The notes under the pieces: generated by a model | What the model was told of the DNA's origin: nothing | Databases searched by the model: none | Seen by the model: the letters and a program-made list of their open reading frames with translations, nothing else | Shown here: in pieces, positions 2,288 through 64,000 of the stretch | How positions within the stretch are numbered: position 1 is the first letter of the stretch | How the letters are laid out: every line of letters starts with the position of its first letter | Source of the DNA: Candidatus Poriferihabitaceae bacterium | Lineage (GTDB): Bacteria; Pseudomonadota; Gammaproteobacteria; Arenicellales; Poriferihabitantaceae | NCBI GenBank assembly: GCA_965203265.1 | Contig: CBDBBV010000002.1 | Location: 2,072,207 to 2,136,206 of the forward strand | Direction: 5' to 3' | DNA: 64,000 bases | Program-made: the position numbers and the translations under genes

Positions 2288-2321
2288 TTGGGGCGAGGTC
2301 GTCACGGGGGGGCGGAAGCGC

Positions 2322-5468: not shown

Positions 5469-5470
5469 GC

Positions 5471-5938: not shown

Positions 5939-5954
5939 TGGCTCGGGCGCGATT

Positions 5955-8374: not shown

Positions 8375-8446
8375 GGGCCTTGCCAATCTGCGCAAAATGG
8401 TTATAATCGCCCCCATCAATGCGAAATTGCTCGGCAAATCGCCTGA
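7337..8446 (+). CDS. IS481-like DDE transposase (HTH + integrase core); ORF reads through the right end
   Basis: VSRSTLYAW HTH; AFDT, LTDNGSEF, NAIVERFNRTIQE, YNTRRPHASL. Confidence 0.9.
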   Translation: MLIQRVGFRVRGMYHVASLGMKEAHMSQSTEVKLRALEVWREHDIHATMTAFQVSRSTLYAWRKAYQQGGVAALTNRTTKPLRVRRRNYPRALIEQMRKLRREFPNIAGEALRVHLAKWCAENRMKCPSARTLGRIIADQPDRLRIAPANITRYGRLKAFTRQIKQRLSRAIRRTTIPGRCVAFDTIVRHIDGVRRYLIVAIDHATRLSVAICPESASSKNAARFAELVEAMFPFPIENVLTDNGSEFAGAFDQFAKERGWTHAYTYPRSPKMNAIVERFNRTIQEDFVDYEEDLLLTDRVAFNQRLLDYLEKYNTRRPHASLQFRSPVQFLAENHPESRMYWHRTGPCQSAQNGYNRPHQCEIARQIA

Positions 8447-8585
8447 TCCCGCAACCCACTTTGAGGAATGTGACCATGAAAATCCATAGCCGAATCACCC
8501 GATCCACCGCCACCCACGCCGCCTCGGCCACCACCAACGCCGTTGCGAATGGGAATGCCAACCTGAACATCAGTCCGAACCCAAG

Positions 8586-8610
8586 CCCCCCCCCCCCCCC
8601 CCCCCCCCCC
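8586..8610 (+). repeat. Poly-C tract (25 C), candidate phase-variation site
   Basis: Direct count; lies between an RBS-preceded ATG at 8476 and the adhesin ORF. Confidence 0.9.
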
Positions 8611-8726
8611 TACTAGAATTTGATGCGGCGAGGCAAGATGCTCGCCGAATCTTTTCCCGAAAAATCCATTTCCCAAGCACCGCACGCGATAAATCCCTCC
8701 GGCGATCAGTCAGCCTACCCGCCGCA

Positions 8727-48478: not shown

Positions 48479-48590
48479 GTTGGACTCCTCCAAAGAGAAC
48501 CTATTCACCCACGGTAGCGGTTGTGCGAGCGGAAAAGCAGGCTTTTCTGATGGCTCATAAAAATCGGGAATTACATACTTGACACAGCAT

Positions 48591-48725
48591 TCATTTATGC
48601 AACTGCCCGCCGCCCTCTTTCGGGCGGCGTTTCTTTGTGTCCTTGCGTTTCTCTTTCGGCTTGAATCTCACTACCCTATCCGCAATATGGTCAAGGGCGT
48701 TCTGGTCGAACTTCGGGTCGTTCAC
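48591..48725 (-). CDS. Small basic ORF downstream of the IS1595 transposase
   Basis: GTG overlaps the tnp stop; NDPKFDQNALDHIADRVVRFKPKEK... Confidence 0.5.
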   Translation of the reverse strand: MNDPKFDQNALDHIADRVVRFKPKEKRKDTKKRRPKEGGGQLHK

Positions 48726-49648
48726 TTGATCAAATCCGCGTAGGTCAGCCGCTTTCCGACTGCTTGCCCAATCAGGCTATCCAGCCTATCGAGGGTGTGC
48801 CGCTTCACATTCCCGTCATTCAGCCGGAAAGTGAATTCGTCCACATACCGCCGCAAGTGTTTCGTGCTCATCTGGTGGTAAACCCCGTTGTAGCCGCGCT
48901 TCAGCACCGCCCACACGCTTTCAATCCCGTTCGTGTGCGCCATGCCGTTGACAAACTCCTTTGCCGAATGCCTGACCGTCTTGTGGCGGTAGGCGCTGGC
49001 AAGGCGGGAATATCCGCTATATTCGTCAGTGTAGACAGTCGCTCCGGGTTCGACAGCGCTACCTATTTCGCGGTTTATGGTTTCCGCCGTAGCATTGGGA
49101 ACAGGCTTTGCCTTCGTTTTTCCGCCGCGCTCTCGCATCCCAAGAACCGGCTGCTTGCCTATCATTCCCCGCCCCAAGCGTTTTTTCTTGGATTCGTGCT
49201 TGTTTCTCTCGCTTCCGCCGATATAGATCTCGTCTACTTCAACCGAGCCGGAAAGGGATTGCAGGTCATTCCCGCAAATCTCACGCAGCCGATGAAGCAA
49301 GAACCAAGCGCTTTTCTGCGTAATCCCGACTTCCTTTGAAAGCTGCAGGCTGGATATTCCCTTCCTACTGGTTTGAAGCAGATACATCGCGTACAGCCAC
49401 TTGTCGAGGGGGATATGCGAGCGCTCGAATATTGTGCCAACCCGAACAGTGAATTGCTTGCGGCAATCCCCGCACTGGTGCACGATCGGGCGAGAAACCA
49501 ATCTGTGATTGTGCTTGCTCCCACAATGCGGGCAGGTGATTCCATCCTTCCAGCGGCGAGATTCCAAGTACTTGGCCGCCGAGTTTTCGTCAGGGAATCT
49601 CTTGAAAAAGTCGAAAGCGCTGATGGTGGATTGGCAATTTGCCGTCAT
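48722..49648 (-). CDS. IS1595-family (ISXO2-like) DDE transposase
   Basis: CPHC..CGDC zinc ribbon, VEVDE, YTDE, HTNGIES.W, YVDEFTFRLN. Confidence 0.95.
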   Translation of the reverse strand: MTANCQSTISAFDFFKRFPDENSAAKYLESRRWKDGITCPHCGSKHNHRLVSRPIVHQCGDCRKQFTVRVGTIFERSHIPLDKWLYAMYLLQTSRKGISSLQLSKEVGITQKSAWFLLHRLREICGNDLQSLSGSVEVDEIYIGGSERNKHESKKKRLGRGMIGKQPVLGMRERGGKTKAKPVPNATAETINREIGSAVEPGATVYTDEYSGYSRLASAYRHKTVRHSAKEFVNGMAHTNGIESVWAVLKRGYNGVYHQMSTKHLRRYVDEFTFRLNDGNVKRHTLDRLDSLIGQAVGKRLTYADLIK

Positions 49649-52128: not shown

Positions 52129-53271
52129 GTGATTGATTCCCCAACCTTCGCCCATCTCAGAGAAGCCATCGCCGACTGCATCGATACCGACCGGAGCACG
52201 CTCGACCAACTTCGGCAGGAGATTCGGCCTTTGCGCGGGGCGGTTCATCCGATTCGGCCTCGTGCGACCACATCGATTTCCATCGTGGGTGCCGATGGCG
52301 GGAATAATCAGATTCGCTTCGATCCATTCCTCATTCAACTGGTTCGGGTGGTGGACAGCAGCAACAACGAATACTGTTTGGAAGCCGTTTCCCCGACTAC
52401 GCCGATCGAGAAACTCGATGCGAGACAATTCTCGCGGGACGGCACTCCGATTACGGCGCTTGGCGAGATGATGTCCTTCCTCGGCGTTACAACATTGACG
52501 GCGCTTTCCAACATGATTCGACCGAATCCGCTCGGTAAACCGGTTTCGCCTACATGGGTGCGGGTCTATCGAGAACTGGTGGAATGGGCTACGCTCTTTT
52601 CGATTCTCAAGAAGGATTTCGGTACCGATACATTGATCGTGTATGACGGCTTGTTGCGCAGTGTGGTTTTTTCCACGGGCTTGTTTCAGCGCCTGCTCAG
52701 AGGCATGAAGGAGCGAATAGTCGAGCAATGGGAAAGGAGTCGCCGCCGCATCTATCTGGCCGGCTTGGCAAAAAATAGCAAGGTGCTCACGCGATACCGA
52801 TTGGCAATGTCTCTCGAAGGAGTTCTCCAGACCGACTATCCGGCTTTCGTGGAAGTGGATCGCGAAATTGAGGAACGGGCATATATAAGGCCGGAATTCG
52901 CCCGTGGTGAAGAACTTGTCGCCGAAGACGCGGACGTCGACAAATTCGCCGGTGGAAAAATGTTTCTCGCGAAATTCGGGCGGCGCCGACACGATCCGAT
53001 TTGGCCGGTCGATATTTTCCTGCCGCAACGGAAGCGGGCGCAAACCATCTTGGGATCGATTCTCGCGGACACGGTCAACGGGTTTCCGGTGCCGCATTAT
53101 CCGAGTTGCCTGCAAAAGGCGCATGAGAACGCCGCGCTCGTAGACTTCGATTTCGATGTTCTCCAAGACTACATATTCGACGGTTTCAGGGCAAGCCTCA
53201 AACACGAGGCGGCAACACTCGATGTTTTTCAGCTGCAGGACGCCGACCCCACCCAAAGACGATACGAATAA
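52129..53271 (+). CDS. NurA-domain nuclease
   Basis: VGADGG, YRELVEW, IVYDGLL, AGLAKNS, GFP.PHYP..LQKAHE; coupled to HerA. Confidence 0.8.
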   Translation: MIDSPTFAHLREAIADCIDTDRSTLDQLRQEIRPLRGAVHPIRPRATTSISIVGADGGNNQIRFDPFLIQLVRVVDSSNNEYCLEAVSPTTPIEKLDARQFSRDGTPITALGEMMSFLGVTTLTALSNMIRPNPLGKPVSPTWVRVYRELVEWATLFSILKKDFGTDTLIVYDGLLRSVVFSTGLFQRLLRGMKERIVEQWERSRRRIYLAGLAKNSKVLTRYRLAMSLEGVLQTDYPAFVEVDREIEERAYIRPEFARGEELVAEDADVDKFAGGKMFLAKFGRRRHDPIWPVDIFLPQRKRAQTILGSILADTVNGFPVPHYPSCLQKAHENAALVDFDFDVLQDYIFDGFRASLKHEAATLDVFQLQDADPTQRRYE

Positions 53272-53280
53272 GCCTCCACC

Positions 53281-55371
53281 ATGACGGAACCTATTCAGCT
53301 GTTCCCGCCGGACAAGGTGGTCGGGATATTCCGTGGCTTCCAACACGGCGGCCTCGAATTCCACGCCGACTTGGCGCTTCCGTATCGCAACGAATTTCAG
53401 AACATACCGATGCACGGGCAGTTCCTGTTGGTGCAGCTCGAATCGCCGGACGAAGCAGTGCTCGGTCGCATCACTTCCTTCTCTTCCGAAGGCAAACTCT
53501 CGTTCGGTTCCGGCGAAGAATTCAACATTCGCGCGATGCAAGAGGATCGCGCCATTCCCGAAGATCTGCGCGAACAATATCTGAAGTATCGAGTCAACAT
53601 CCGCGTGCTCGGCGTGCTGCGCAACAACGGCGCCGATCTCACTTTTGTCCCTTCGCATCGGCGTCTTCCCCATGTCGGCAGCCGAGTCGCATTCCCCTCG
53701 AGCGCCGTGCTGAGCGAGATTTCCGGGCATAACTCCAACGGCGCGCCGATCGGCCATCTGGCGTTCGGCGAATACATATACGCTTCGGGGAACGACGATT
53801 TCGAACAGCAGGATTGGATGCAGATTGCGGAGCCGGAAATTCTGGTCAAGTTCCCGCTGGAATCTCTGGTTTCGCGGCGCAGTTTCGTGTTTGCCCGCGC
53901 CGGTTTCGGCAAGTCGAACCTGAACAAACTGTTGTTCAGCAAACTCTATGCGAAGACGACTTTTGTGGAAAAACGTGGTGGCCGAAAGGTGCCGGTCGGC
54001 ACGGTGATTTTCGATCCGGACGGCGAGTATTTTTGGCCGGATGATAAGGGGCGGCCGGGGTTATGCGATGTGCCTGCGCTCGAAGACAAGTTGGTGGTGT
54101 TCACGGGGCGATCGAATCCGAGTCGGTTCTATCAATCTTTCGTCGCCGGCGGCATCAAACTGGATATTCGGCGTCTCCAACCAAGCGATGTGATCGCCAT
54201 CGCATTGAGCCCCGAACGGCAAGAGCAACAGAACGTGCGAAAACTACGCGGCATGCCGCAAGATCGATGGGAGACGCTGGTAAATCTGATCGATGAGGGC
54301 GGAAACAATGCGCCGATCAAGGAAGTGTGTCAACTGCTCGACCTAAACCCGAAAATCCAAGAAGTCGAGGCACTAGCCGCACGCGGCAATATGACCACGA
54401 TCGTTCGCATGTTGCACGACAAGAGCAGCCAACTCATGGATATGCTCATCCATTCGCTGTCAAAGGGAAAACTCTGCGTGGTCGATGTATCCCAAATGCG
54501 CGGCGGCCAATCGCTGATTTTGTCGGGACTGATCCTTCGCAGGATATTCGACCGCAACCAAAATGAATTCACAAAGAAAGAACCGAAAACAATTCCCACA
54601 ATAGCAGTCATAGAAGAAGCCCAATCAGTTCTCAACACCGGCGCAGCCGCAGCCGATCCATACATAGCCTGGGTAAAGGAAGGAAGAAAATACGACCTCG
54701 GCGCGTTGCTGATCACCCAACAACCCGGCAGTATCCCAGTAGAAATCCTAAGCCAAGGCGACAACTGGTTCATCTTCCACCTACTTTCATCATCCGACCT
54801 AATCTCCCTCAAACGAGCAAACTCCCATTTCAGCGACGACTTACTGAGCTCCCTGCTAAACGAACCGATTCCGGGCCAGGGCGTGTTCTGGAGTTCGGTA
54901 GGGGGGAAACCTTATCCGGTGAGCATTCGGGTGCTTTCGTTCGAGCGTCTTTATTCCATGCGAGATAGCAATTACAACTTGCCCGCTGGAAACACATTTG
55001 CGAATAGTTTGCGCCGCACTGTTGGACGACAAGCGATGGCCGACAGGACGCAATCTCCTAACGTCGAGATAACATCGGATCAGGAGGAGCAGGAACCGAT
55101 CGACTTCAAATCCGAATTCGAATCTGTAGCCATTGCCGCACTGCGATCCAACACACAGCTGATGAACAAACTGAAGTCACCGAACGGATATGCGTGGGGT
55201 TACTTGATTGCGTTTTTCCTAAAGAACCTGCCACAACATCTGGACAACGAGGGAGATCTCGCCCATCAACTCGTGCCAAAGGCCATGTGCGATATTTTCG
55301 GCGCTCAAAACAAGGGATGGGAGTCATTCAAGGACGCGAAGGGAACAACGTGTATCCGCAAGAAGGGGTAA
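53281..55371 (+). CDS. HerA/FtsK-like ATPase (DUF87)
   Basis: ARAGFGKS Walker A, IFDPDGEY, VIEEAQ, KEGRKY.LG...ITQQP. Confidence 0.88.
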   Translation: MTEPIQLFPPDKVVGIFRGFQHGGLEFHADLALPYRNEFQNIPMHGQFLLVQLESPDEAVLGRITSFSSEGKLSFGSGEEFNIRAMQEDRAIPEDLREQYLKYRVNIRVLGVLRNNGADLTFVPSHRRLPHVGSRVAFPSSAVLSEISGHNSNGAPIGHLAFGEYIYASGNDDFEQQDWMQIAEPEILVKFPLESLVSRRSFVFARAGFGKSNLNKLLFSKLYAKTTFVEKRGGRKVPVGTVIFDPDGEYFWPDDKGRPGLCDVPALEDKLVVFTGRSNPSRFYQSFVAGGIKLDIRRLQPSDVIAIALSPERQEQQNVRKLRGMPQDRWETLVNLIDEGGNNAPIKEVCQLLDLNPKIQEVEALAARGNMTTIVRMLHDKSSQLMDMLIHSLSKGKLCVVDVSQMRGGQSLILSGLILRRIFDRNQNEFTKKEPKTIPTIAVIEEAQSVLNTGAAAADPYIAWVKEGRKYDLGALLITQQPGSIPVEILSQGDNWFIFHLLSSSDLISLKRANSHFSDDLLSSLLNEPIPGQGVFWSSVGGKPYPVSIRVLSFERLYSMRDSNYNLPAGNTFANSLRRTVGRQAMADRTQSPNVEITSDQEEQEPIDFKSEFESVAIAALRSNTQLMNKLKSPNGYAWGYLIAFFLKNLPQHLDNEGDLAHQLVPKAMCDIFGAQNKGWESFKDAKGTTCIRKKG

Positions 55372-55432: not shown

Positions 55433-58066
55433 TCAGCGGATTTTTTGTTGACGACCACTGATGTCATCTATCCATTCTTTCAATGCAGTAATCTCTTTTT
55501 GAATATCTGTCGGCTTCGGTAGTGGTGAATTTAGGTGACTAGCAGTACTATGCAGTAATATTGCGCAACGGCCGTAAGCATCTCGCATCTTATCGCAATC
55601 TTCAATTTTTAGCACAGTAACTTTGACAAGTCCTGTTGTATCAACCTTGTTGGAAAAGCGATTTAATACAGGTTCAACAGCTTCTTCAACGGCACACTCC
55701 CATGTGCGGCGCAGCTGATTACACAATGAATCGACAGTATTTACCCACTTATCCCGTTTTCCTTTTTCGTAAGCATATTTCTCTTTGTTGAGCCGATTCT
55801 GTATGCTTTGAATAGCATCTTTTGCAGATTGAGCATTGAGAGGTAAATTTTTCTGGACAAAACCAGCATAGTCGTCATTTCGACTCACACTACAACAAGC
55901 CAAATTCACGCTCTTGCTACGGCATGCTTGTTGGAGAAGAGAAAGAAACGCAATATCATGTGTAAGTACGATTACTTGTCGGCATTGCGCCTCTTCTGCA
56001 AGCCTGTTGGCTACCGCCTTGCGGTTCAGGTGGTCAAGTGATGAAATGGGATCGTCAAATACGATTGCCGAACGGCTATCTGCCGTGATGAGCTCGGCCA
56101 AAAAAGCAGCCAATGCAACACATCGGTGTTCTCCTTCGCTGAGGATTTTCCCAGCAGATTGTTCTGGCTTTTGAATCAGGCTGACCCGGAAACGTGGAAC
56201 ACCGTAGCTCGAAGTTTCCTTGCGTAACTCCACTTTCAATCCAGAGATACCCATTTTTTGTACTTCTTCCGAAAATTGTGTTTGGAGAGCGCGGGTAACA
56301 AGATTTTTGGCGATCTCGCTACTCTTTTTCGTAATCCGGTGCGTAGCGGTATCATCGATCGATTCTTGTAGCATACCCAGCTTCTTTAGACGTTTAATTT
56401 CACGGAAAACATCATCTTTCACATTATTCAGCCATTCGCGATCTTCCATCTCAGCAAGTTGGCTTTTCATTTTCTTACGTTCTTCGGATTCTCCACTCGC
56501 ACGAAGCGCGGTGATTCGTTCCGACAGATTGTTTGTGTGCGTGATGAAAGCCTCGGTGGGCCAAGAAGCAACCTCGGGGTAACGAACATTTTCGCCACAT
56601 GTATGTTTTTGACGAATGGCTCGCAATCGCCATTTGGCCATTAAAACCGCCTGCCGAACCGATTTTTCCAGTGCGACGTCATCCAACTCGTTGTGTATCA
56701 GTTTAATCATCTCCTCCATATCTGAAAGTGAAATATCTTTATCGACTAGCGCGTCATATGCATTACGATATGCCATTGCCGCGACGTCTTCCCTGCGTTT
56801 GGTTTCGTCTTTCACGAAGTGGTCGAAACGCCTGAGGCGATCAACCGCATCTTGACTCAGTTCTTGCTGGCATAGGACACAGCGGGCAGCATTATCTGTA
56901 AATGGAAAAGGTGTATCCGGATAGGCATATTGTTCGGAATAGTGCCGCGCTGCGTCCCATAGTTTGCGCCATACCTCCGAACCAATCTCCGGCAAGGGAT
57001 CGTTGGTGAATATGTTTTTGGCAGCTGCAGCGGCGGCTTCTTTCGCTGATGTATAGTCTTGATGTAATGCTACGAGATGTTTGATTTGTTTTTCTTCCAA
57101 TATGTTCCGCAATTCCTCAAATTTTGCATAAAAATCATTCATTTTTTTCTTCAGCACATCAAGTTTATTTGCCGTCTTATCAGGATCGGATTTGAGGTCG
57201 TTTCTGAGATTATCGAGCCGAGACTTTCCCTCACCATCCATCGTCGCTAGTCGGAGAACATCCTGCTTATTCGTGTTTCCATTTAGCCCTTGAATAAGTT
57301 TACCGACTCTCGTTTCAGTAGAGCATCTCTGATTTGTGATTGCGCTCGGTTTCTGTCCATCCAGATTTTCGATTTCTGCATTGATATGTTCCTTGATCGT
57401 TCGGCAAGTTTCGGCGAGTTTTTCCAACACCTGCATCGGGAAAGGCGTATAAGCAACATCATTTTTTCCATCGACATGAATGCTAGCCGTGTGACTGTCG
57501 AAAACGCTGATTGAGGAAAGACGCGGATCGATCGCTTGGTCTGACCAGTTATGTGTATCGTTTTGCCCGCCGGCAGTAAACTTGATAACAGCCCGTGGCG
57601 GTCCGGGATTCGTTGAGTAGATATTTGGCAATATCGTTTCTTCTTTTGGTGGCACGCGCGCCCGGCAGGCTTTCTTCAAAATGCGTACATAGCCAGATTT
57701 TCCAGAGCCGTTGTCGCCGTATACGGCTGTCAGTCCTGTCTTGCAAAAGCTAAGATGTTCGCCTTTCGGCAACGCATTGACATTCTCAATATCACGGATG
57801 GCGAGAAGATTGACCACCGTCGCAGCAGATTCAGGATTGTGGATATGTTCCGCAGAAAGGGGTTCTCCTTCCCCCTTGTTCTTGCACAGAATCGTCAGCT
57901 CGTCCAAGTCGGTGTCGTTTAGTTCACTTTTCGCGCAAAGACGGCGTAATGCATCGCGCTGCCACCCTGGACAATCCGCAGACCATGTAAGAATATCCTG
58001 CATGGCTGTGGCTACACTGTTGGTGCGCCGTGAATTTTGATCAGTCGTTTCGTTAGGGTTAACCAT
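55433..58066 (-). CDS. RloC/AAA_13-like ABC ATPase with zinc hook and possible C-terminal HEPN
   Basis: GDNGSGKS, CVLC, LSEGE, FDDPISSLD, LTHD; C-terminal RCAILLH. Confidence 0.8.
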   Translation of the reverse strand: MVNPNETTDQNSRRTNSVATAMQDILTWSADCPGWQRDALRRLCAKSELNDTDLDELTILCKNKGEGEPLSAEHIHNPESAATVVNLLAIRDIENVNALPKGEHLSFCKTGLTAVYGDNGSGKSGYVRILKKACRARVPPKEETILPNIYSTNPGPPRAVIKFTAGGQNDTHNWSDQAIDPRLSSISVFDSHTASIHVDGKNDVAYTPFPMQVLEKLAETCRTIKEHINAEIENLDGQKPSAITNQRCSTETRVGKLIQGLNGNTNKQDVLRLATMDGEGKSRLDNLRNDLKSDPDKTANKLDVLKKKMNDFYAKFEELRNILEEKQIKHLVALHQDYTSAKEAAAAAAKNIFTNDPLPEIGSEVWRKLWDAARHYSEQYAYPDTPFPFTDNAARCVLCQQELSQDAVDRLRRFDHFVKDETKRREDVAAMAYRNAYDALVDKDISLSDMEEMIKLIHNELDDVALEKSVRQAVLMAKWRLRAIRQKHTCGENVRYPEVASWPTEAFITHTNNLSERITALRASGESEERKKMKSQLAEMEDREWLNNVKDDVFREIKRLKKLGMLQESIDDTATHRITKKSSEIAKNLVTRALQTQFSEEVQKMGISGLKVELRKETSSYGVPRFRVSLIQKPEQSAGKILSEGEHRCVALAAFLAELITADSRSAIVFDDPISSLDHLNRKAVANRLAEEAQCRQVIVLTHDIAFLSLLQQACRSKSVNLACCSVSRNDDYAGFVQKNLPLNAQSAKDAIQSIQNRLNKEKYAYEKGKRDKWVNTVDSLCNQLRRTWECAVEEAVEPVLNRFSNKVDTTGLVKVTVLKIEDCDKMRDAYGRCAILLHSTASHLNSPLPKPTDIQKEITALKEWIDDISGRQQKIR

Positions 58067-58098: not shown

Positions 58099-58596
58099 TT
58101 ATGTAAGTGATTTCAATCGCGCCGAGATTTCATCCTGAGGAAGAAATACCGTTTCGTCGCGTTGCCAGATGTTGAGCGCTTGCACTAGCCTTGATTTCTC
58201 GCAAACCCCTGTAACGTTGAGTTGGTCAATAACCCAAAGAACGCCGTGTACGCATAAGCAATTTTGGTTGGCTACCTTGCGCAGGAGAGCATCGCCAGTC
58301 AGCAAGATGCCGGAGTGACTTCGGGCAGAGACAATACAAAAACAGTCATTGATAGAGAGTCCGAGATGCCGTTTTTTGATCTGGCTAGCCTGACCAACCT
58401 CGTCGGGATTCAGATCGTAAATGATCATCCCGGCATCGCACAGAATTTGCCATTGGTGCTTGGATAGATCCTGAACTTCAGCGCGCACAGGCAGTGGCAC
58501 CACGAATTTATAGGGCAATTCGCAAAGCACGTTCAATAGACCACCCTTGCGTAGATCGATCAGGCAGGAAGCATCGTTGACGATTACGGATGTCAC
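58099..58596 (-). CDS. PIN-domain protein
   Basis: IVNDASCLIDL, LSINDC, LLTGD..LR, HGVLW. Confidence 0.85.
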   Translation of the reverse strand: MTSVIVNDASCLIDLRKGGLLNVLCELPYKFVVPLPVRAEVQDLSKHQWQILCDAGMIIYDLNPDEVGQASQIKKRHLGLSINDCFCIVSARSHSGILLTGDALLRKVANQNCLCVHGVLWVIDQLNVTGVCEKSRLVQALNIWQRDETVFLPQDEISARLKSLT

Positions 58597-59672
58597 TGGA
58601 TTTTCGAACCGCTTATCTGGTGCTCGACTTCGCCGAGTGGCTGATTGAGAAGTGCCGCCGCACGCACAGGAGAAATCAGCTCCTCGGCCACTGCACGCAA
58701 GACGAGCAATTTGAAACGACGAGGCTTTTCAAAGGCTGCGAATCCTTGATTCTCGCCGATTGGATCAGGTTCCGATTTGCGCCAAGAGCGGGCGAAGGTC
58801 ATGAAAGCGTGCTTGACGGTCGACGCAGACAACACGCCAACCTGACCAAGACGCATCAATATGACTGACGCCGAAACTCCGTACATGTGCTTCAGGCGCA
58901 TGATCTCGTAATACGTAATCCGATGGCGGTCGATGCCCACCTCGTCCTGTAAATGTTGGCCGGGAACGAGCAATGCACCGGCGAAGCGGTTCATCGCCGC
59001 TTCCAATTTGATCGCCGGGTTGCCGGTAGAATGAATGATTTTGTGGGCGAGTTCGTGGGCGAGCGTGAAGCGTTTGCGCTCGACATTGATCCGGCTGGAC
59101 ACCATGACGGTCTCGGCGACGATCTTGCCGTCCCGCAGAGCGTGACACGAAAGGCCATTGATGCTTTTGGGGAGTTCGGCTTCGACCACCTTGATGCCCT
59201 TGTCCTCGAGCAGATTGCACAGGCTGGGAATGGGGTCCAGACCGAGATTCCAAGCCTTACGAAGGGCATCCGCCCTCTCGTCGATCTGGATTTCGCTCGC
59301 GACGCTATCGTAACGGCGCTTCTCGACCCAACCTACATCGGCCGGCAGGTTGAGGATGTGCTCGATGGCCAGATAACGCTCCAGATTGTCTATCAGGATT
59401 GCTTCGGCCTTGGCGCGGTCGCGGGCGGAAGTGCCGGAATGCTTGCGGAACTCCACGCCGTCAAGTTCCTCGACCTGCCCGCTCATAAGGAAATCCAGCG
59501 AGACACCGAGCGCCTTGCCGAGCCCGACCAGCACGGCGGAAGACGGGAGCATTTTGCCCGCCTCGTACTTGCTGATCGCCTGCGCGGTCACCTTCGGAGT
59601 CACCGCGGCGGCGAGCGCCCGCATGGATAGCCCTGCCCGTTTGCGGGCGAGCCGGAGTCGTTGTCCAAACAT
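58593..59672 (-). CDS. XRE HTH fused to ImmA/IrrE metallopeptidase
   Basis: FGQRLRLAR..AISKYE HTH; RKRFTLAHELAH; E.AMNRFAGALL.P. Confidence 0.92.
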   Translation of the reverse strand: MFGQRLRLARKRAGLSMRALAAAVTPKVTAQAISKYEAGKMLPSSAVLVGLGKALGVSLDFLMSGQVEELDGVEFRKHSGTSARDRAKAEAILIDNLERYLAIEHILNLPADVGWVEKRRYDSVASEIQIDERADALRKAWNLGLDPIPSLCNLLEDKGIKVVEAELPKSINGLSCHALRDGKIVAETVMVSSRINVERKRFTLAHELAHKIIHSTGNPAIKLEAAMNRFAGALLVPGQHLQDEVGIDRHRITYYEIMRLKHMYGVSASVILMRLGQVGVLSASTVKHAFMTFARSWRKSEPDPIGENQGFAAFEKPRRFKLLVLRAVAEELISPVRAAALLNQPLGEVEHQISGSKIQ

Positions 59673-59700
59673 AATAAATTCCCGATTGCTATTTACCCAG

Positions 59701-59738
59701 GGTTGACATTCTATGTTTTTTGTAGGATATTGTAAACC
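59701..59738. promoter_or_regulatory. Divergent promoter with putative operator half-sites
   Basis: ggttgaca (contains the -35 TTGACA) and tgtaaacc are near-inverted copies. Confidence 0.5.
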
Positions 59739-59826
59739 TCTAGTTGGCACTATTTCTTCATGCCCATCACCGGTGGGCGTGCACGCGCAATAGCGCCGAA
59801 AAATTCACAGACCAGAGGAGACCGAT

Positions 59827-60069
59827 ATGGCCAAATTTGAATTCAAAATAAACGGAGAAACCTTCTTCTCCGACCAGCAAACCGTTGACGCCGCAGTGTT
59901 GCTAAAAATTGCGTTCGACGGCAAGGCGATTGGCGAGGACCCGGACAAAATCGGGTACGTGCTGATAGTACCGGACTCGAATGAAACCTTCGTTTCCGGG
60001 GTAGTAGTCGATCTCGACCAGTACAACGTGTTTCGCGCCGCCCCGGACAAGGGTGCACCGTTCGCATGA
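59827..60069 (+). CDS. Putative ubiquitin-like (multiubiquitin-type beta-grasp) protein
   Basis: FKING...V....LL..A...Y.L.......VDL...F pattern; Gly four residues before the C-terminus; RBS gaggag; operon context. Confidence 0.65.
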   Translation: MAKFEFKINGETFFSDQQTVDAAVLLKIAFDGKAIGEDPDKIGYVLIVPDSNETFVSGVVVDLDQYNVFRAAPDKGAPFA

Positions 60070-60485
60070 GCAAGAGCTCCGAGCGCATCGCCGCCGAACT
60101 CGGCAAACTAGGTTACCGGACGAAATCATTCACCGCACCTCCGCAACAGGGTTGCGGCGACGGTGTCCGCTTTACATACCGAATCGAGGACGGCAGTCGC
60201 GCCGGAGAGAGCGTAACCTTTGCCGTCGCAATGCGCGAGAACGAGGGCGTATGGCCCGAAGTGGCGCCGCACTGGATTTATCTCGCGCCCCCGGACATTG
60301 ATCTGGCAGAGCTCGTGAGGGAGTCGAATGGGGCAGTTGATATCTATACGGACGCAGATGGCCTCGACTGGATGGCGATCAGCGCTCCGCCGAGCGACTT
60401 CTGGGATCAAATCGATACGCCTGATGGCAAAAACATGCAAATTTACTTGGACAAGCACATCCGCAGAATCTGGAGAATGCGTTGA
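60066..60485 (+). CDS. Putative prokaryotic E2/UBC-like protein
   Basis: WP..APHWI and W.A.S.PP..W pattern; lies between the Ubl and JAB-E1 genes. Confidence 0.6.
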   Translation: MSKSSERIAAELGKLGYRTKSFTAPPQQGCGDGVRFTYRIEDGSRAGESVTFAVAMRENEGVWPEVAPHWIYLAPPDIDLAELVRESNGAVDIYTDADGLDWMAISAPPSDFWDQIDTPDGKNMQIYLDKHIRRIWRMR

Positions 60486-61990
60486 AATATCGTGTCGTTC
60501 TACGCGAAGCGCTGCACCGCCAGCTGGCGGATCACCTGCTGAGTGGACTACAGCGCGGCGGAGTGCAAGAGGAAGTTTGTTTTGCACTCTGGCATCGGGG
60601 TGACGGGTTCAACCGCTATACGGGGATTCTCGGTGAAATTCTTCTCCCGCAAGACGGAGACCGAGACCTGCATGGCAATGTTACGGTACAAGGTGGATAC
60701 CTAAACCGCGTCTTGGATCGGGCGCTCAAGGCGCAAGCAGGTGTCGCCGTTCTTCACAGCCATCCGGCCCCCGGTTGGCAGGCGCTAAGTTGCATGGATG
60801 ACGATACCGAGCGCAGCATCATCACGCCCTTCATCCGCGAGACCGGCCTGCCGTTGCTCGGACTGACGATGGGCAGTGACGGTATATGGAGCGCCCGCTT
60901 TTGGCATGACTCCGGTTATGGCCATATCGCGCCCGCGCACTGCACGGAAGTACGACGAGTCGGGCCACGCCACACCGAAGCGGATTACCTTCCGAACGCA
61001 TACCCGCCCTATAAGCGCCGCCCAAGTCTGGTGCGAACCATCGACAGCTGGGGCATCGAAACGCAAGCAAGACTGGCTCGAACGCATATCTGTGTAGTGG
61101 GTGCAGGAAGTGTCGGTTCCATCGTGCTCGAATACCTCGCGCGTATCGGGTTTGAGGAGATGACTATCATTGATCCGGATCATGTCGAGGACAAAAATCT
61201 GGATCGTTTGATTTACGCTGACCGGCACTGCCTGAGGTTGAACAAGTCGAAAGTAGCAGCCGCTCATCTTCGCAGTATCGCCACGGCACGCAATCCGGTC
61301 GTCCGCCCGATACCATTGTCCATCCGCACAGAGCGCGCGTATCGATTGGCAGCCGATGCGGATGTAATCGTGTGCTGCGTCGACAATGCAGAGGCGCGCG
61401 AGGTTCTCAATCATCTTGCATACGCAAACTGCCTTCCATTGATAGACGGTGGCGTTCTCGTGGAGTCAAAAAATGATCGTCTACTATCCGCAAAGTGGCG
61501 CGTCCATCTGACTGGCCCCGACATGCGGTGCCTGCGTTGCTATAAACAATACGAAAGCGGCGATGCGCGAGATGAACGTATGGGTATCAGGCATCGTGGG
61601 CGCTACATCAACGACGATTTGAACGATCCGGACAACCCGGAACCCGGGCAGAACACAATCGCATTTTGCGGCGTAGTGGCGGCTGAACTGACGCGGATGT
61701 TGGTGCGCTACTTGGTCGGTGAGGATTGGTGGCACGATAACTTTCCCACCTCCGGCCAATGGTCGTTCGAACACCATTTTGTGGAGGCAAAAACCAAACC
61801 GTTCCAACATCCGGATCGATGCGTAGGTAGCTGCGAATTCGCGCATAAGCGGCTAGGACTTGGCGAACGAGGAAGATCCAAATACCCATTCGCCGAGGAA
61901 CCACACGCAAATTGGGCTACCAGAATGGCGCTTTGGTATTATCAGATTCGGATGAAGGTGAGCCGTGCGATTGCGGCGTTGTGTACCTGA
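60482..61990 (+). CDS. JAB/JAMM peptidase fused to ThiF/E1 adenylyltransferase
   Basis: EEVCF..LHSHP..S..D JAMM motif; VVGAGSVGS, DPDHVEDKNLDR, CVDN..AR, CLRC. Confidence 0.88.
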   Translation: MKYRVVLREALHRQLADHLLSGLQRGGVQEEVCFALWHRGDGFNRYTGILGEILLPQDGDRDLHGNVTVQGGYLNRVLDRALKAQAGVAVLHSHPAPGWQALSCMDDDTERSIITPFIRETGLPLLGLTMGSDGIWSARFWHDSGYGHIAPAHCTEVRRVGPRHTEADYLPNAYPPYKRRPSLVRTIDSWGIETQARLARTHICVVGAGSVGSIVLEYLARIGFEEMTIIDPDHVEDKNLDRLIYADRHCLRLNKSKVAAAHLRSIATARNPVVRPIPLSIRTERAYRLAADADVIVCCVDNAEAREVLNHLAYANCLPLIDGGVLVESKNDRLLSAKWRVHLTGPDMRCLRCYKQYESGDARDERMGIRHRGRYINDDLNDPDNPEPGQNTIAFCGVVAAELTRMLVRYLVGEDWWHDNFPTSGQWSFEHHFVEAKTKPFQHPDRCVGSCEFAHKRLGLGERGRSKYPFAEEPHANWATRMALWYYQIRMKVSRAIAALCT

Positions 61991-62311: not shown

Positions 62312-64000
62312 ATGACGGAAGCCCGCGCGCGTACCAAGATCGATACCCTGCTCAAGAATGCCGACTGGGATCTGAATGACGGCACCAGCGTTCAGTTCGA
62401 GTACACGCTGCCCGATGGCACGCGCGCCGATTATGCGTTGTGTGATCGAGCCGGGCGTCCGATGGCGGCGCTGGAGGCGAAGCGGGAGGGGGTTGACCCC
62501 GTTTCGGCGCGGGGGCAAGGGCAACATTATGCCGAGCAGATGGAGGTGCCATTCGTTTTCCTGTCGGATGGCGATGGGGTGTGGTTTCTGGATCGCGAGC
62601 GCGATGCCCATGCGCGGGAGATTGCGGGTTTTTATTCGCAGGATGATCTGGAAAGACGAATCGCCGTCCGCCAGATTCGCCGCGATTTGTCGGACACCTC
62701 CATCGACCGCAGGATCGTCGACCGCGACTACCAAACCGAATGTATCGAATCTCTTTCCACCGAGGTATCTCGCGGGCGGCGCAAGCTGCTGGTGGAGATG
62801 GCGACCGGTACCGGCAAGACGCGCACGGCGGCGGCCTTCATCAAGCGGTTGTTCGAGGCGGGCATCGTTACTCGCGTCCTCTTCTTGGTCGATCGAATCG
62901 CGCTGGCGCGTCAAGCCGAGGACGCTTTCACCGACCATCTGCGGGATTACCCCTGCCATGTACTGCGACCCGGACGCAACTTCGATCGCACCAAGCGGAT
63001 CACGATCGCCACCCTGCAGACCATGATCGCCGAGTACGACGATCTCTCGCCGGGCTATTTCGACCTCGTCATCACCGATGAATGCCACCGCTCCATCTAC
63101 GGCAAATACAGCCGCGTATTGCGACATTTCGACGGCATTCAACTCGGCCTGACCGCCACACCGTGTACGGCGCAGGACGCCGCCCTTCCCGATCCCGAGG
63201 ACGGATTGTTCGTGCGTGACACCCTGCGATTCTTCGAGGTCGATGAACCCACCTTCCGCTACACCCTGCACCGCGCCATCGAGGAGGGCCATCTCGTTCC
63301 CTATCGCATCTATCGGGCGATGACGGTGAAAACCGCCGCCGAAGACGGCTTTCCGGTGCGCCGAGACGAGATCGATTGGAACGCTCTGGATGAGGAAACG
63401 CGGGCAGAATTCGAAGAATTGTTCGGCGGCGCGGACACCATCACGGTGGACCCACGCGCGCTGGAGCGCAAGTTCACCATCCCCGAACGCAACCGCGCGC
63501 TGGTGCGCGAATTCCGCGACACCCACGAAAAAGGCTTCATGGGCCGAGACGGAATCCGCCGCTGGCCCGACTGGGGCAAGACCATCGTGTTCGCCGTAAA
63601 CCGCCGTCATGCCACGACACTGGCAGCCATGTTCGACCATCACTTCGCAGACCTGAAACCGCACTCGACTACGCGATACGCCGATTTCGTGGTGAGCGAT
63701 GTAGGCGGCGGTGCCGCGCCCGATGCCAGCGCGATCATCAAGAGATTCAAGGATGAGGATTATCCGAAGATACTGGTCAGCGTGAACATGCTGGACACCG
63801 GCTTCGACTGCCCGGAGGTGGTCAACTTGGTCATGGCGCGATTCACCCGCAGCACCATCCTATACAGGCAAATGCGCGGACGCGGCACGCGCCAAGCGCC
63901 GCACATCGACAAACGCAAATTCACCATCTTCGATTTCGTCGGCGTAACGGACTTCCACGGAGACGATGACGGAGCGGTAGACGGCACCGCGATTCACACC
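62312..64000 (+). CDS. hsdR: Type I restriction endonuclease subunit R (runs off window end)
   Basis: ADY.L...LEAKR nuclease, RDYQ, MATGTGKT, DECHRS, GLTATP, MLDTGFD, QMRGRGTR; missed by the ORF track because no stop is in the window. Confidence 0.9.
   Translation, partial: MTEARARTKIDTLLKNADWDLNDGTSVQFEYTLPDGTRADYALCDRAGRPMAALEAKREGVDPVSARGQGQHYAEQMEVPFVFLSDGDGVWFLDRERDAHAREIAGFYSQDDLERRIAVRQIRRDLSDTSIDRRIVDRDYQTECIESLSTEVSRGRRKLLVEMATGTGKTRTAAAFIKRLFEAGIVTRVLFLVDRIALARQAEDAFTDHLRDYPCHVLRPGRNFDRTKRITIATLQTMIAEYDDLSPGYFDLVITDECHRSIYGKYSRVLRHFDGIQLGLTATPCTAQDAALPDPEDGLFVRDTLRFFEVDEPTFRYTLHRAIEEGHLVPYRIYRAMTVKTAAEDGFPVRRDEIDWNALDEETRAEFEELFGGADTITVDPRALERKFTIPERNRALVREFRDTHEKGFMGRDGIRRWPDWGKTIVFAVNRRHATTLAAMFDHHFADLKPHSTTRYADFVVSDVGGGAAPDASAIIKRFKDEDYPKILVSVNMLDTGFDCPEVVNLVMARFTRSTILYRQMRGRGTRQAPHIDKRKFTIFDFVGVTDFHGDDDGAVDGTAIHT

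What the first reader, a model, noticed from the sequence alone, without database searches (positions are those of the whole stretch)
58099..61990. Compact bacterial ubiquitination-like operon (Ubl, E2-like, JAB-E1 fusion) with divergent XRE-ImmA and PIN genes
Seen: three overlapping genes (4-bp overlaps) encode an 80-aa protein ending DKG-APFA, a 139-aa protein, and a JAMM plus ThiF fusion with intact motifs. They are divergent from XRE-HExxH and PIN genes inside a defence island. Established: Bil/Bub-type bacterial operons use Ubl, E1, E2 and a JAB that trims the Ubl to a C-terminal Gly, and ImmA/IrrE-type peptidases control stress-induced defence operons. Inference: JAB removes APFA to expose the Gly. 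The E2-like protein has only one Cys, near the N-terminus, and a Ser in WMAISAPP, so conjugation may be Ser/oxyester-based or otherwise non-canonical. The JAB-E1 fusion with a standalone E2 may be a distinct subtype.
Basis: partly seen in the sequence, partly recalled or inferred. Interest (0 to 1): 0.8.

Follow-up and report, generated by a model that had tools for sequence, protein, structure and literature searches.

The report
BubE-less Bub-like ubiquitin cassette with toxin switch
This is a horizontally spread five-gene cassette that joins a bacterial ubiquitin-like protein-tagging operon of the recently described cysteine-free "Bub" kind, here without that kind's usual trimming protease, to a repressor-protease and a PIN nuclease that look like a toxin-antitoxin pair.

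Summary
All five ORFs, the three 4-bp overlaps and the motifs are present. The same 3.9-kb unit recurs with sharp borders in other genomes (43 loci, many phyla) under purifying selection.

The three plus-strand genes form a Bub-type system (formerly "6e"):
- a single beta-grasp Ubl, closest to BubA;
- a UBC-fold E2 with no conserved Cys, closest to BubB (VIA Z 8.6; hhalign 94%);
- a JAB-E1 fusion, closest to Citrobacter BubCD (profile E 5e-44), with the invariant crossover-loop Tyr.

Ser/Tyr oxyester chemistry is already published for Bub, so it is not new.

What differs from published Bub:
- No BubE/DUF6527 in the cassette or anywhere in the genome.
- At the E2 site, His69 stands where canonical BubB has Asp, and Pro108 where it has His.
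- The Ubl carries an invariant GAPFA tail.
- The partner is a fused XRE-M78 protein plus a PIN nuclease. These are predicted to bind with the PIN active site covered (0.77 against 0.00 in controls), as in Rosmer-like toxin-antitoxin pairs.

Related cores on actinobacterial plasmids pair with XRE-M78 and other toxin-like genes. A JAB-E1 fusion beside a standalone E2 is not a new subtype.

Verdict: a new variant of a known kind, of moderate interest. No biochemistry was tested here.

The parts
58099..58596 (-). PIN-domain nuclease (165 aa), toxin-like partner of XRE-M78
   Evidence: Pfam PIN E 2.8e-5 and PADLOC PDC-S70 E 1.2e-7. D8, E40, D84 and D102 are invariant in 14 of 14 sequences. Predicted to bind XRE-M78 through its active-site face. 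Its start overlaps the XRE-M78 stop by 4 bp.
58593..59672 (-). Fused XRE helix-turn-helix and M78 (ImmA/IrrE) metallopeptidase, 359 aa from the conserved start (the ORF is open up to 59750)
   Evidence: Pfam HTH_3 E 2.6e-11 and Peptidase_M78 E 2.4e-16. PADLOC RmrA E 5.3e-46, capP 1.4e-13, capH 2.1e-6. NCBIfam spr1629 repressor/antitoxin scores 89 bits, below its cut-off of 335. Mean column identity is 85% over 12 sequences, with HExxH invariant.
59673..59826 (.). Shared control region with two fully overlapping divergent sigma-70-like promoters. Their -35 boxes form a conserved inverted repeat, GTTGACA (59702-59708) and TGTAAAC (59731-59737), which is a likely operator.
   Evidence: Promoter scan: plus strand TTGACA at 59703 with GATATT ending at 59731; minus strand TTTACA at 59736 with TAGAAT ending at 59708; both 10 of 12 matches. 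The scan found 2 sites in 4.5 kb against 2.8 expected by chance, so conservation is what counts: TTGA.A and T.A.C columns are invariant in the 14-locus alignment.
59827..60069 (+). Ubl precursor (80 aa), a single beta-grasp BubA-like protein. G76 is the probable reactive C-terminus and A77-A80 (APFA) the probable trimmed tail.
   Evidence: AF2 pLDDT 88.7, with residues 77-80 below 50. Foldseek top hits are bacterial multi-ubiquitin proteins (8u38_A E 5e-4, TM 0.63; BubA 9ea8_B E 0.012). VIA: 9cd2_B Z 8.2; BubA 9eav_C Z 7.7, rmsd 2.7, 71 aligned. GAPFA is conserved and three divergent loci have longer variable tails.
60066..60485 (+). E2-like UBC-fold protein (139 aa), a diverged BubB. S106 is the probable catalytic Ser. 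H69 and H131 are invariant. No Cys is conserved.
   Evidence: AF2 pLDDT 89.8. VIA-wide top hit is BubB 9eav_D (Z 8.6, rmsd 3.9, 118 of 128 aligned), followed by E2/UEV/Atg3 chains at Z 5-7.5. hhalign against canonical BubB gives prob 94.3%, E 9.8e-8, with S106 on the Ser of WSRH, H69 on the Asp and P108 on the His. Invariant residues.
60482..61990 (+). JAB/JAMM peptidase (about aa 1-170) fused to a ThiF-type E1 adenylation domain (about aa 185-502), BubCD-like. Y375 is the probable crossover-loop catalytic Tyr.
   Evidence: Best PDB hit is Citrobacter BubCD 9ea4_A: E 4.4e-23 for the single sequence, and E 5.1e-44 for the profile, covering positions 4-410. E30 is nearly invariant. H92, H94, S103, D106, R242, C350, C353 and Y375 are invariant in 14 sequences, and no Cys lies between C353 and Q390.

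Best explanation
Window 58099-61990 is one mobile five-gene cassette made of two coupled modules.

Module 1 (plus strand) is a Type I Bub-like ubiquitin-like conjugation operon that lacks BubE. The proposed steps are all inferred by homology to Citrobacter Bub:
1. The JAB domain of the JAB-E1 protein trims the APFA tail of the 80-aa Ubl precursor to expose G76.
2. The E1 domain adenylates G76.
3. The Ubl passes to the crossover-loop Tyr375 as an oxyester.
4. It then passes to Ser106 of the UBC-fold E2. Here His69 probably assists the Ser, in place of the Asp/His pair of canonical BubB.
5. Finally it is attached to a lysine of an unknown target.

Module 2 (minus strand) is a Rosmer-like / 'COG2856-Xre plus PIN' pair. 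The fused XRE-M78 protein is predicted to hold the PIN nuclease with its active site covered. It most likely also represses the two overlapping divergent promoters between the modules.

The proposed trigger is a stress or phage signal that activates the M78 peptidase, as shown for ImmA and CapP. That would remove the repressor, release PIN and switch on the tagging operon. The role is most likely anti-phage or stress defence.

Shown here: gene integrity, folds, homology, conserved catalytic residues, cassette conservation and horizontal spread, and the absence of BubE. Inferred: every biochemical step, the operator, the trigger and the biological role.
For: Identity of module 1:
- JAB-E1 matches BubCD over both domains.
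- The E2-like model's best solved match of 48,161 chains is BubB (Z 8.6), followed by true E2s. The profile-profile match to canonical PF14462 BubB proteins has prob 94.3% and puts S106 on the catalytic Ser.
- The Ubl model matches BubA/multi-ubiquitin structures best.
- No Cys is conserved in the E2 or in the E1 crossover loop. Y375 is the only invariant loop residue, including in a canonical Rhizobium BubCD.

Tail trimming:
- The tail has low confidence in the model.
- G76 is conserved, and tails of varying length follow GAPF in L030, L032 and L033.
- Fused Ubl-E2 relatives carry G-x-x-P-x-A linkers.
- BubCD cleaves BubAB after the conserved Gly (paper, section 4 read).

No BubE:
- PF20137 is not found in the 98%-complete own genome.
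- It is absent from 8 of 10 other cassette-bearing genomes, and elsewhere in the genome in the other 2.

Module 2:
- PADLOC RmrA E 5e-46.
- Complex score 0.77 against a best of 3 controls of 0.00. That mark was reached by 58 of 80 solved complexes and 2 of 110 mismatched pairs. The runs agree in at least 94% of contacts and the partner pLDDT is at least 86. The interface includes PIN residues 8-10, 39-43, 81-83 and 101-104, which are the catalytic acids.
- PIN is truncated or missing while XRE-M78 is intact in 5 loci, and the reverse never occurs.
- COG2856-Xre fusions with PIN or RelE toxins, and ImmA-domain antitoxins paired with PIN-like toxins, are described in PMC2701414 and PMC10440598 (passages read).

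Coupling of the two modules:
- 19 of 43 loci have all five genes intact by a strict test, and the cassette borders are sharp.
- The overlapping promoters and inverted repeat are conserved.
- On actinobacterial plasmids a core at 33-37% identity, with no DUF6527 annotated, sits next to an XRE-M78 gene in 6 of 6 loci inspected. The partners there are HigB/RelE-like (2), PIN nearby (1) or unknown small genes.

Accessory, acquired nature:
- 0 of 11 same-genus genomes carry the JAB-E1 gene.
- The loci come from many phyla yet share 55-84% protein identity.
Against: - Nothing biochemical was tested.
- Foldseek found no PDB match for the E2-like model, and a VIA Z of 8.6 is only slightly above the typical best score of unmatched models. 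The E2 assignment therefore leans on the profile alignment and on gene order.
- The residues that accompany the catalytic Ser in Type I Bub (Asp and S-x-H) are not kept, so the chemistry could differ.
- HMMER places Citrobacter's catalytic Tyr five positions away from Y375 in a gap-prone loop.
- APFA is invariant in the main clade, which is odd for a discarded tail. It may be a JAB recognition site, or it may be constrained by the overlapping start region of the next gene.
- A canonical split BubA ends directly in Gly.
- The complex prediction is a model built on my own alignments. HTH antitoxin-toxin pairs resemble solved complexes, so the pass may come from memory.
- The more divergent relatives (L027, L028, L030, L033, L037-L043) lack the XRE-M78/PIN pair. 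L032 has only a distant XRE-M78-like gene on the same strand. The core therefore works without the pair.
- The authors of the Bub paper found no phage protection for any Bub operon tested (Discussion read).
Confidence: 0.7

Rival explanations
1. Two independent modules travel together. The XRE-M78/PIN pair is an ordinary addiction or toxin-antitoxin module (or a separate Rosmer-type defence) that merely stabilises or hitch-hikes with the Bub-like operon. It neither regulates that operon nor serves as its effector.
For: - XRE-M78 plus PIN or RelE pairs are widespread on their own (PMC2701414 and PMC10440598, passages read).
- The three-gene core occurs without the pair in L027, L028, L030 and L033, and in the sister clade L037-L043, which instead carries an AAA_15/AAA_21 ATPase gene in L037, L040 and L043.
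- PIN is often lost while the rest of the cassette stays intact.
Against: - The five genes move as one unit with sharp borders across many phyla.
- The two operons share fully overlapping promoters and a conserved inverted repeat.
- Distant actinobacterial cores are again next to XRE-M78 genes, with different toxin-like partners, in 6 of 6 plasmid loci inspected.
- Separate CapH and CapP genes are reported next to 31% of Bub operons (paper, section 4 read).
Confidence: 0.2
2. The 139-aa protein is a catalytically inert UEV/RWD-like adaptor, as Iyer et al. proposed for '6e' operons in 2006. It binds the Ubl or a target, and transfer, if any, comes directly from the E1.
For: - No Cys is conserved.
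- Tsg101 UEV scores Z 6.0 in the fold search.
- The 2006 paper calls the 6e E2-like domain inactive (PMC1779556, passages read).
- The Asp and His that accompany the Ser in BubB are replaced.
Against: - S106, H69 and H131 are invariant across 31 diverse relatives.
- S106 aligns with the BubB Ser. Mutating that Ser together with the neighbouring His (S333A/H335A) abolishes conjugation in Citrobacter (paper, section 4 read).
Confidence: 0.05
3. This is a sulfur-carrier or cofactor/siderophore biosynthesis system of the ThiS/MoaD-ThiF kind, with a JAB peptidase as in CysO/Mec+ (recalled, not checked here). It is not a protein-tagging system.
For: The E1 domain scores with ThiF/MoeB models (TIGR02356 E 6.4e-25, far below its cut-off) and has CxxC motifs like MoeB and ThiF.
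Against: - There is no rhodanese domain, and no biosynthetic neighbours were seen among the ORFs inspected.
- A UBC-fold partner gene is always present.
- The best match by far is BubCD, at E 5e-44 against about 1e-20 for MoeB.
- The locus sits in a mobile, defence-like setting.
Confidence: 0.02

Closest known systems
Type I Bub operon (formerly 6E.1): Citrobacter sp. RHBSTW-00271 BubAB, BubCD, BubE (Ye, Gong, Chambers, Corbett, bioRxiv 10.1101/2024.11.21.623953; abstract and sections 4 and 12 read; PDB 9ea4, 9ea8, 9eav)
   Same: - JAB-E1 fusion homologous over both domains.
- E1 loop without Cys and with an invariant Tyr.
- UBC-fold E2 without Cys, whose invariant Ser aligns with the catalytic Ser.
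- Multi-ubiquitin-type beta-grasp Ubl with a conserved Gly before a removable C-terminal extension.
- Mobile, defence-like genomic setting and an M78/HTH regulator.
   Different: - No BubE/DUF6527 at all.
- The Ubl and the E2 are separate genes. The Ubl is a single domain with a 4-residue tail rather than an entire E2 as its 'tail'.
- E2 residues: His69 replaces the Asp and Pro108 replaces the His of S-x-H.
- Pfam PF14462, PF14452 and Prok-JAB models do not reach E 0.1.
- The E1 has a CxxC motif that Citrobacter BubCD lacks at the aligned position.
- The regulator is a single fused XRE-M78 protein, followed by a PIN gene.
'6e' operons of Iyer, Burroughs and Aravind 2006 (PMC1779556; passages and Table 1 text read)
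   Same: A polyUbl or solo Ubl, a separate Cys-less E2/RWD-like protein and a JAB fused to an E1, sporadically distributed and mobile.
   Different: The defined set includes a metal-binding protein ('Y', now DUF6527/BubE), which is missing here. The E2-like protein was then predicted to be inactive.
RosmerTA (RmrT/RmrA) and the 'COG2856-Xre plus PIN/RelE' three-component toxin-antitoxin systems (PMC10440598 and PMC2701414; passages read)
   Same: A fused HTH-M78 protein (PADLOC RmrA E 5e-46) is translationally coupled to a toxin-type gene, here PIN. The antitoxin is predicted to cover the toxin's active site. The toxin gene is often lost while the antitoxin is kept.
   Different: Here the pair is locked, through shared overlapping promoters, to a ubiquitin-like conjugation operon. 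I found no description of this in the papers read. Toxicity and neutralisation are untested.
CapH + CapP regulators of CBASS, Bub and other defence operons (as cited in the Bub paper, section 4 read; the mechanism is recalled from that text)
   Same: An HTH repressor plus an M78 peptidase sit upstream of, and divergent from, the regulated immune operon. PADLOC capP E 1.4e-13 and capH E 2.1e-6.
   Different: The two are one polypeptide here rather than two genes, and the protein matches RmrA models far better. A toxin-like gene follows.
Bil (bacterial ISG15-like) systems
   Same: A Ubl, an E2, a JAB and an E1 in one operon, and Ubl processing by the JAB.
   Different: [quoted passage not shown] None of these features is present here.

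Membership tests
Type I Bub operon | JAB/JAMM peptidase fused N-terminally to a homodimer-type E1 adenylation domain (BubCD) | tested here: met
   BubCD is the best PDB hit: E 4.4e-23, and profile E 5.1e-44 over positions 4-410. The JAMM residues and the adenylation Arg (R242) are invariant.
Type I Bub operon | E1 crossover loop without a catalytic Cys and with an invariant Tyr | tested here: met
   There is no Cys between C353 and Q390. Y375 is the only invariant loop residue in 14 sequences, which include a canonical Rhizobium BubCD. Caveat: HMMER aligns the Citrobacter Tyr 5 positions away.
Type I Bub operon | UBC-fold E2 (BubB) with an invariant Ser in place of the catalytic Cys | tested here: met
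   VIA top hit is BubB 9eav_D at Z 8.6. hhalign prob 94.3% with S106 on the Ser of WSRH. S106 is invariant and no Cys is conserved.
Type I Bub operon | The catalytic Ser is accompanied by an invariant His (S-x-H) and an invariant Asp | tested here: not met
   In the profile alignment P108 stands at the His position and H69 at the Asp position. The same pattern holds in 31 relatives.
Type I Bub operon | Multi-ubiquitin-type beta-grasp Ubl with a conserved Gly at the processing site | tested here: met
   Foldseek and VIA top hits are BubA/multi-ubiquitin structures. G76 is nearly invariant and a tail follows it. Pfam Multi_ubiq itself does not match.
Type I Bub operon | Ubl encoded as a fusion to the E2 (BubAB) | tested here: not met
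   The genes are separate, with an ATGA overlap. Split forms also occur in canonical operons that have DUF6527, so this feature is not strictly defining.
Type I Bub operon | BubE (DUF6527/PF20137 serine protease) in the operon ('all Bub operons possess bubE') | tested here: not met
   No PF20137 match in the own genome, which is 98.17% complete. None in 8 of 10 other cassette genomes, and only distant copies in the other 2. The cassette ends at the JAB-E1 stop.
Type I Bub operon | ATP-dependent Ubl conjugation through Tyr and Ser oxyester intermediates | not testable with these tools
   This needs biochemistry.
Bil system | Separate JAB, an E1 with tandem adenylation domains plus a Cys domain, and an E2 with a catalytic Cys | tested here: not met
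   The JAB is fused to a single ThiF domain in a 502-aa protein. No Cys is conserved in the E2.
RosmerTA / COG2856-Xre toxin-antitoxin system | Antitoxin made of an XRE HTH fused to an M78 (ImmA) peptidase | tested here: met
   Pfam HTH_3 and Peptidase_M78. PADLOC RmrA E 5.3e-46 over profile positions 5-329 of 363.
RosmerTA / COG2856-Xre toxin-antitoxin system | Adjacent co-transcribed toxin that the antitoxin binds and neutralises | tested here: inconclusive
   An intact PIN gene overlaps the antitoxin gene by 4 bp. Predicted binding scores 0.77 against 0.00 in controls and covers the PIN active site. Toxicity and neutralisation were not tested. No PADLOC RmrT model matched PIN; it matched PDC-S70.
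CapH/CapP regulator pair | Separate HTH repressor and M78 peptidase genes upstream of the regulated operon, with cleavage on DNA damage | tested here: inconclusive
   The domains and the divergent position fit, with weaker capP and capH model matches. However, the two are fused here. Cleavage is not testable with these tools.

The most novel reading that the evidence does not exclude
The cassette is one integrated immune device of a kind not yet described. A toxin-antitoxin-like sensor (XRE-M78 holding a swappable toxin: PIN here, HigB/RelE-like on Rhodococcus plasmids, and an Xre-antitoxin/RES pair beside a canonical Bub operon on a Mesorhizobium plasmid) is functionally wired to a BubE-less ubiquitin-like conjugation machine. 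In this machine the E2 would use a relocated His-Ser pair. The Ubl would tag either phage proteins or the toxin-antitoxin complex itself, deciding whether the nuclease is released. If so, this would give the still function-less Bub pathways their first effector link.
Probability: 0.25. Interest if true: 0.75.

Novelty: new variant of a known kind. Interest (0 to 1): 0.5.

Why it matters
The biochemistry of Bub pathways is known: ubiquitin-like tagging without any cysteine. Their biological role is not, and their discoverers report no phage protection so far.

This cassette offers a compact natural variant of 3.9 kb and five genes, which is useful in three ways:
- It shows that the deconjugating protease BubE is dispensable.
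- Its E2 active site is rebuilt around the same serine (a His where canonical BubB has Asp, a Pro where it has His). That tests which residues the oxyester chemistry really needs.
- It ties the tagging operon, through shared promoters, to a nuclease toxin and a protease-repressor. This suggests how such systems are switched on and what they may act through.

Near-identical copies in bacteria of many phyla indicate strong recent horizontal spread, which is typical of defence cargo.

Tried and rejected
Searches that gave nothing:
- Pfam, NCBIfam and PADLOC: no family for the Ubl or the E2-like protein at E up to 0.1-1. Pfam also gave no JAB model for the N-terminus of the 502-aa protein.
- Sequence searches of the E2-like protein against PDB, with a single sequence and with a 31-sequence profile, gave only chance-level hits and not BubB. 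The Ubl gave no PDB sequence hit.
- Foldseek against PDB with the E2-like model gave nothing at E 0.001 or better. VIA-align then found BubB.
- ESM Atlas: best score 0.83, unnamed clusters, no lead.
- Viral contigs: 9 pattern matches, 0 relatives.
- Sequencing runs: 4 holders in 2 studies, no RNA holder listed; no reads were laid.
- tblastn with the Rhizobium DUF6527 protein against the 43 loci: nothing below E 0.3. This is a weak test with a single sequence.
- Earlier findings by place and by sequence: nothing.

Limits:
I therefore could not superpose the E2-like model on BubB or measure the Ser-His distances.

Readings rejected:
- Bil-type thioester system: wrong E1 architecture and no Cys.
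- Frameshifted BubAB pseudogene: the split with its ATGA overlap is conserved and under purifying selection. A true frameshift fusion does exist, but only in the decayed locus L031.

Rows left out:
- Alignment A1 uses 22 of the 114 clusters, chosen to span the identity range.
- Alignment A2 uses 31 sequences: 8 from the 114 clusters and 23 stand-alone proteins of 122-134 aa from the 95 representatives. It leaves out fragments, fused forms and the giant multi-stretch proteins of 400-6200 aa, whose matches look like repeat artefacts.
- The dN/dS figures use 6 loci, and pairs with unusable dS were dropped (7-11 of 15 pairs were usable per gene).

The supplementary tables of the Bub papers (the operon catalogue, Table S1) could not be seen. 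They may list split or BubE-less forms.

Full report
**1. What is there**

- Minus strand: XRE-M78 (58593-59750) followed by PIN (58099-58596). The XRE-M78 start conserved in homologues corresponds to 59672.
- Plus strand: an 80-aa Ubl (59827-60069), a 139-aa E2-like protein (60066-60485) and a 502-aa JAB-E1 fusion (60482-61990).

All three junctions are 4-bp overlaps: ATGA, TTGA and GTGA.

Pfam sees ThiF (E 9.7e-36) in the 502-aa protein, HTH_3 plus Peptidase_M78 in the XRE protein, and PIN weakly. It sees nothing in the two small proteins, and no JAB model matches. NCBIfam and PADLOC also have nothing for the two small proteins.

**2. The cassette is real, selected and mobile**

The E2-like protein has 114 clusters of close relatives, almost all of 139-143 aa and all unnamed. 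A scan of one genome per species returned 43 loci that encode a relative, out of 82 pattern matches.

In these loci the five genes recur in the same order and orientation. DNA similarity to the window begins at about 58105 and ends at about 61991, which are the outer ends of PIN and JAB-E1.

| Test | Loci passing |
|---|---|
| All five genes full length, no stops (strict test) | 19 of 43 |
| Three plus-strand genes intact | 29 of 43 |

L016 failed the strict test only because a match ran upstream of the start.

Median dN/dS is 0.10-0.17 for each gene, although dS is saturated.

By their record titles the loci are all metagenome-assembled genomes. They come from Alpha- and Gammaproteobacteria, Binatia, Latescibacterota, Thermodesulfobacteriota, Gemmatimonadota, Spirochaetia, Acidobacteria, Dadabacteria and Opitutales. 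Even so, their proteins are 55-84% identical to the window's. That fits horizontal transfer.

In the window's own lineage the JAB-E1 gene was found in 0 of 11 same-genus genomes. It was found in 1 of 24 same-family genomes, and that one is a 37% relative.

Several copies are decaying: L029, L031, L035, and L034 with an insertion.

**3. The plus-strand operon is Bub-type**

- **JAB-E1.** Its best solved relative is Citrobacter BubCD, aligned over both domains. The single sequence gives E 4.4e-23. The profile gives E 5.1e-44 over positions 4-410.
- **JAB and E1 residues.** In a 14-sequence alignment H92, H94, S103, D106, the adenylation Arg R242 and a CxxC pair are invariant, and E30 is nearly invariant. 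The stretch between the CxxC and Q390 holds no Cys and one invariant residue, Y375. This matches the published defining trait of BubCD, a Cys-free crossover loop with a single invariant, catalytic Tyr (bioRxiv 10.1101/2024.11.21.623953, section 4 read). HMMER's alignment to the Citrobacter chain puts its Tyr five positions away in a gap-prone loop, so the equivalence is probable and not proven.
- **E2-like fold.** The model is confident (pLDDT 89.8). Foldseek found nothing. An exhaustive alignment against 48,161 chains put BubB first (9eav_D: Z 8.6, rmsd 3.9, 118 of 128 residues). Canonical E2s, UEV, Atg3/Atg10 and Cap2 followed at Z 5-7.5.
- **E2-like active site.** A profile-profile comparison with canonical standalone BubB proteins (PF14462) gives 94.3% probability (E 9.8e-8). 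It aligns WPEVAPHW with YPDVAPDM, and DWMAISAPP with SWQRWSRHN.
- **Ubl.** The model is a beta-grasp (pLDDT 88.7). Its best matches are bacterial multi-ubiquitin/BubA structures.

It is invariant in 22 close and 31 diverse relatives, while the single Cys is not conserved.

**4. How it differs from published Bub**

- **No BubE.** The paper states that all Bub operons encode BubE (DUF6527). PF20137 finds nothing in this 98%-complete genome. It finds nothing in 8 of 10 other genomes that carry the cassette. In the remaining two the matches lie more than 1 Mb away or on another contig.
- **Changed E2 residues.** The residues said to assist the Ser in Type I Bub are not kept. His69 stands at the Asp position and Pro108 at the His position. 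H69 and H131 are invariant in this clade.
- **A tailed, single-domain Ubl.** It ends in G76-APFA.
  - For trimming: the tail has low model confidence, and the divergent loci L030, L032 and L033 have longer, variable tails after GAPF. More distant fused Ubl-E2 relatives have G-x-x-P-x-A linkers. All this fits JAB cleavage after the Gly, as shown for BubAB.
  - Unexplained: APFA is itself invariant, perhaps as a recognition site or because it overlaps the start region of the next gene.
- **The split is not new.** Iyer et al. 2006 described '6e' operons with a separate Cys-less E2-like protein and a JAB-E1 fusion (PMC1779556, passages read). Standalone PF14462 proteins form at least 494 clusters. 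Rhizobium and Mesorhizobium plasmids carry split operons with DUF6527.

**5. The minus-strand pair looks like a toxin-antitoxin pair that also regulates**

- XRE-M78 matches PADLOC RmrA, the Rosmer antitoxin, at E 5.3e-46. This is far better than its capP (1.4e-13) or capH (2.1e-6) matches. It is the most conserved protein of the cassette.
- PIN keeps its four acidic residues.
- The complex prediction supports binding. The score is 0.77 against a best of 3 controls of 0.00. That mark was reached by 58 of 80 solved complexes and 2 of 110 mismatched pairs. The runs agree in at least 94% of contacts and the partner pLDDT is at least 86. The counts hold only roughly, because my own alignments were used.
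- The contacts fall on PIN residues 8-10, 39-43, 81-83 and 101-104. On XRE-M78 they fall on the HTH region 41-66 and the C-terminal residues 328-354. The antitoxin-like protein would therefore cover the nuclease site. A pass for this kind of pair may come partly from likeness to solved complexes.
- PIN is truncated or absent with XRE-M78 intact in L005, L007, L018, L021 and L034. The reverse was never seen. That is the pattern expected of a toxin and its antitoxin.
- COG2856-Xre fusions in operons with PIN or RelE toxins were predicted as three-component systems in 2009 (PMC2701414, passages read). ImmA-domain antitoxins associated with PIN-like toxins appear in the NetFlax network (PMC10440598, passages read).

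**6. Coupling of the two modules**

The 154-bp spacer holds two sigma-70-like promoters that occupy the same DNA on opposite strands. Their -35 boxes form an inverted repeat, GTTGACA and TGTAAAC. These are the best conserved columns of the spacer in 14 loci. The promoter scan alone is at chance level, so the conservation is what carries weight.

I inspected six actinobacterial plasmid loci whose JAB-E1 is 33-37% identical. In all six, the three-gene core has no annotated DUF6527 and sits next to an XRE-M78 gene.

| Loci | Position of XRE-M78 | Toxin-like partner |
|---|---|---|
| L049, L051 | divergent | HigB/RelE-like toxin |
| L048 | divergent | unknown 122-aa gene |
| L046 | divergent | small ORF, with a PIN gene nearby |
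| L050 | divergent | none annotated |
| L044 | co-directional | sits behind a sigma factor gene |

A canonical Mesorhizobium Bub operon is divergent from an Xre/RES pair. Recurrence with swapped toxins argues for a functional link.

On the other side, L027, L028, L030 and L033 lack the pair. So does the sister clade L037-L043, where an AAA_15/AAA_21 ATPase gene follows JAB-E1 in L037, L040 and L043. The core is therefore self-sufficient.

**7. Verdict**

The Ubl, E2 and JAB-E1 reading is right, and the system belongs functionally with Bub. It fails two membership features of Type I Bub as published: BubE, and the Asp/His partners of the Ser. I therefore file it as a new variant of a known kind and not as a member.

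Oxyester chemistry is expected by homology but is already known for Bub. The newer points are BubE independence, the rebuilt E2 site and the lock to a Rosmer-like XRE-M78/PIN pair. Here the cassette is intact and shown to be widespread.

Everything about activity, trigger and role remains inference. The Bub authors themselves found no phage protection (Discussion read).

Noticed in passing
L037:7839-9110, L040:7853-9115, L043:7670-8977 (and L041, around 7780-9040): A sister clade of the cassette (E2-like 31-35% identical, JAB-E1 37-41%) has no XRE-M78/PIN pair. Instead, in L037, L040 and L043 a roughly 420-aa AAA_15/AAA_21 (AbiEii/OLD-type) ATPase gene follows JAB-E1 directly (DUF3696 also matches in L043). 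L041 has a P-loop ORF at the same place that I did not scan. In L041 the Ubl there has two beta-grasp-like repeats and ends in GPTPVA.
   Followed up: partly
L046, L048, L049, L050, L051 and L044 (actinobacterial plasmids): The same BubE-less three-gene core sits next to fused XRE-M78 proteins, which are annotated as 'HigA family antitoxin' or ImmA/IrrE. The toxin-like partners vary: HigB/RelE-like in L049 and L051, a PIN gene nearby in L046. In L044 a sigma factor gene precedes the ImmA gene.
   Followed up: partly
L047 (Mesorhizobium plasmid) 2213-6854: A canonical split Bub operon (multiubiquitin, E2/UBC, ThiF, a phosphotransferase, DUF6527) is divergent from an Xre/MbcA-type antitoxin plus RES NAD+ phosphorylase toxin pair.
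   Followed up: no
window 55433-58066 (-): An 877-aa AAA_13/SMC-like ATPase lies directly beside the cassette. It matches PADLOC candidate PDC-S06 almost end to end (E 8e-202). It is not part of the conserved cassette.
   Followed up: no
window 52129-55371 (+): A 380-aa protein with no Pfam or PADLOC match is immediately followed by a 696-aa HerA/DUF87 ATPase. This could be a two-gene HerA-type defence pair.
   Followed up: no
window 45432-48508 (-) and 48722-49648 (-): Two overlapping large ORFs (569 and 458 aa) have no Pfam or PADLOC match. They lie next to an IS1595-family transposase, in a stretch where GC drops from about 0.66 to 0.45-0.55 (45-59 kb).
   Followed up: no
window 62312-64000 (+): A type I restriction enzyme R subunit (ResIII, HSDR_N; PADLOC REase_I E 6e-80) runs off the window end. 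Locus L012 also has an 83%-identical HsdR fragment near its cassette.
   Followed up: no
L034:6430-10440 and L028:4680-5920: Insertions interrupt the cassette in two genomes: about 4 kb between the E2-like gene and JAB-E1 in L034, and about 1.2 kb inside the Ubl gene in L028. I did not look at their content.
   Followed up: no
L031:5782-6426 (= protein P0111): One locus encodes an apparent Ubl-E2 fusion of 203-214 aa. It is a frameshifted, decaying copy (conserved Trp residues lost, JAB-E1 truncated) and not a natural BubAB-like fusion.
   Followed up: partly
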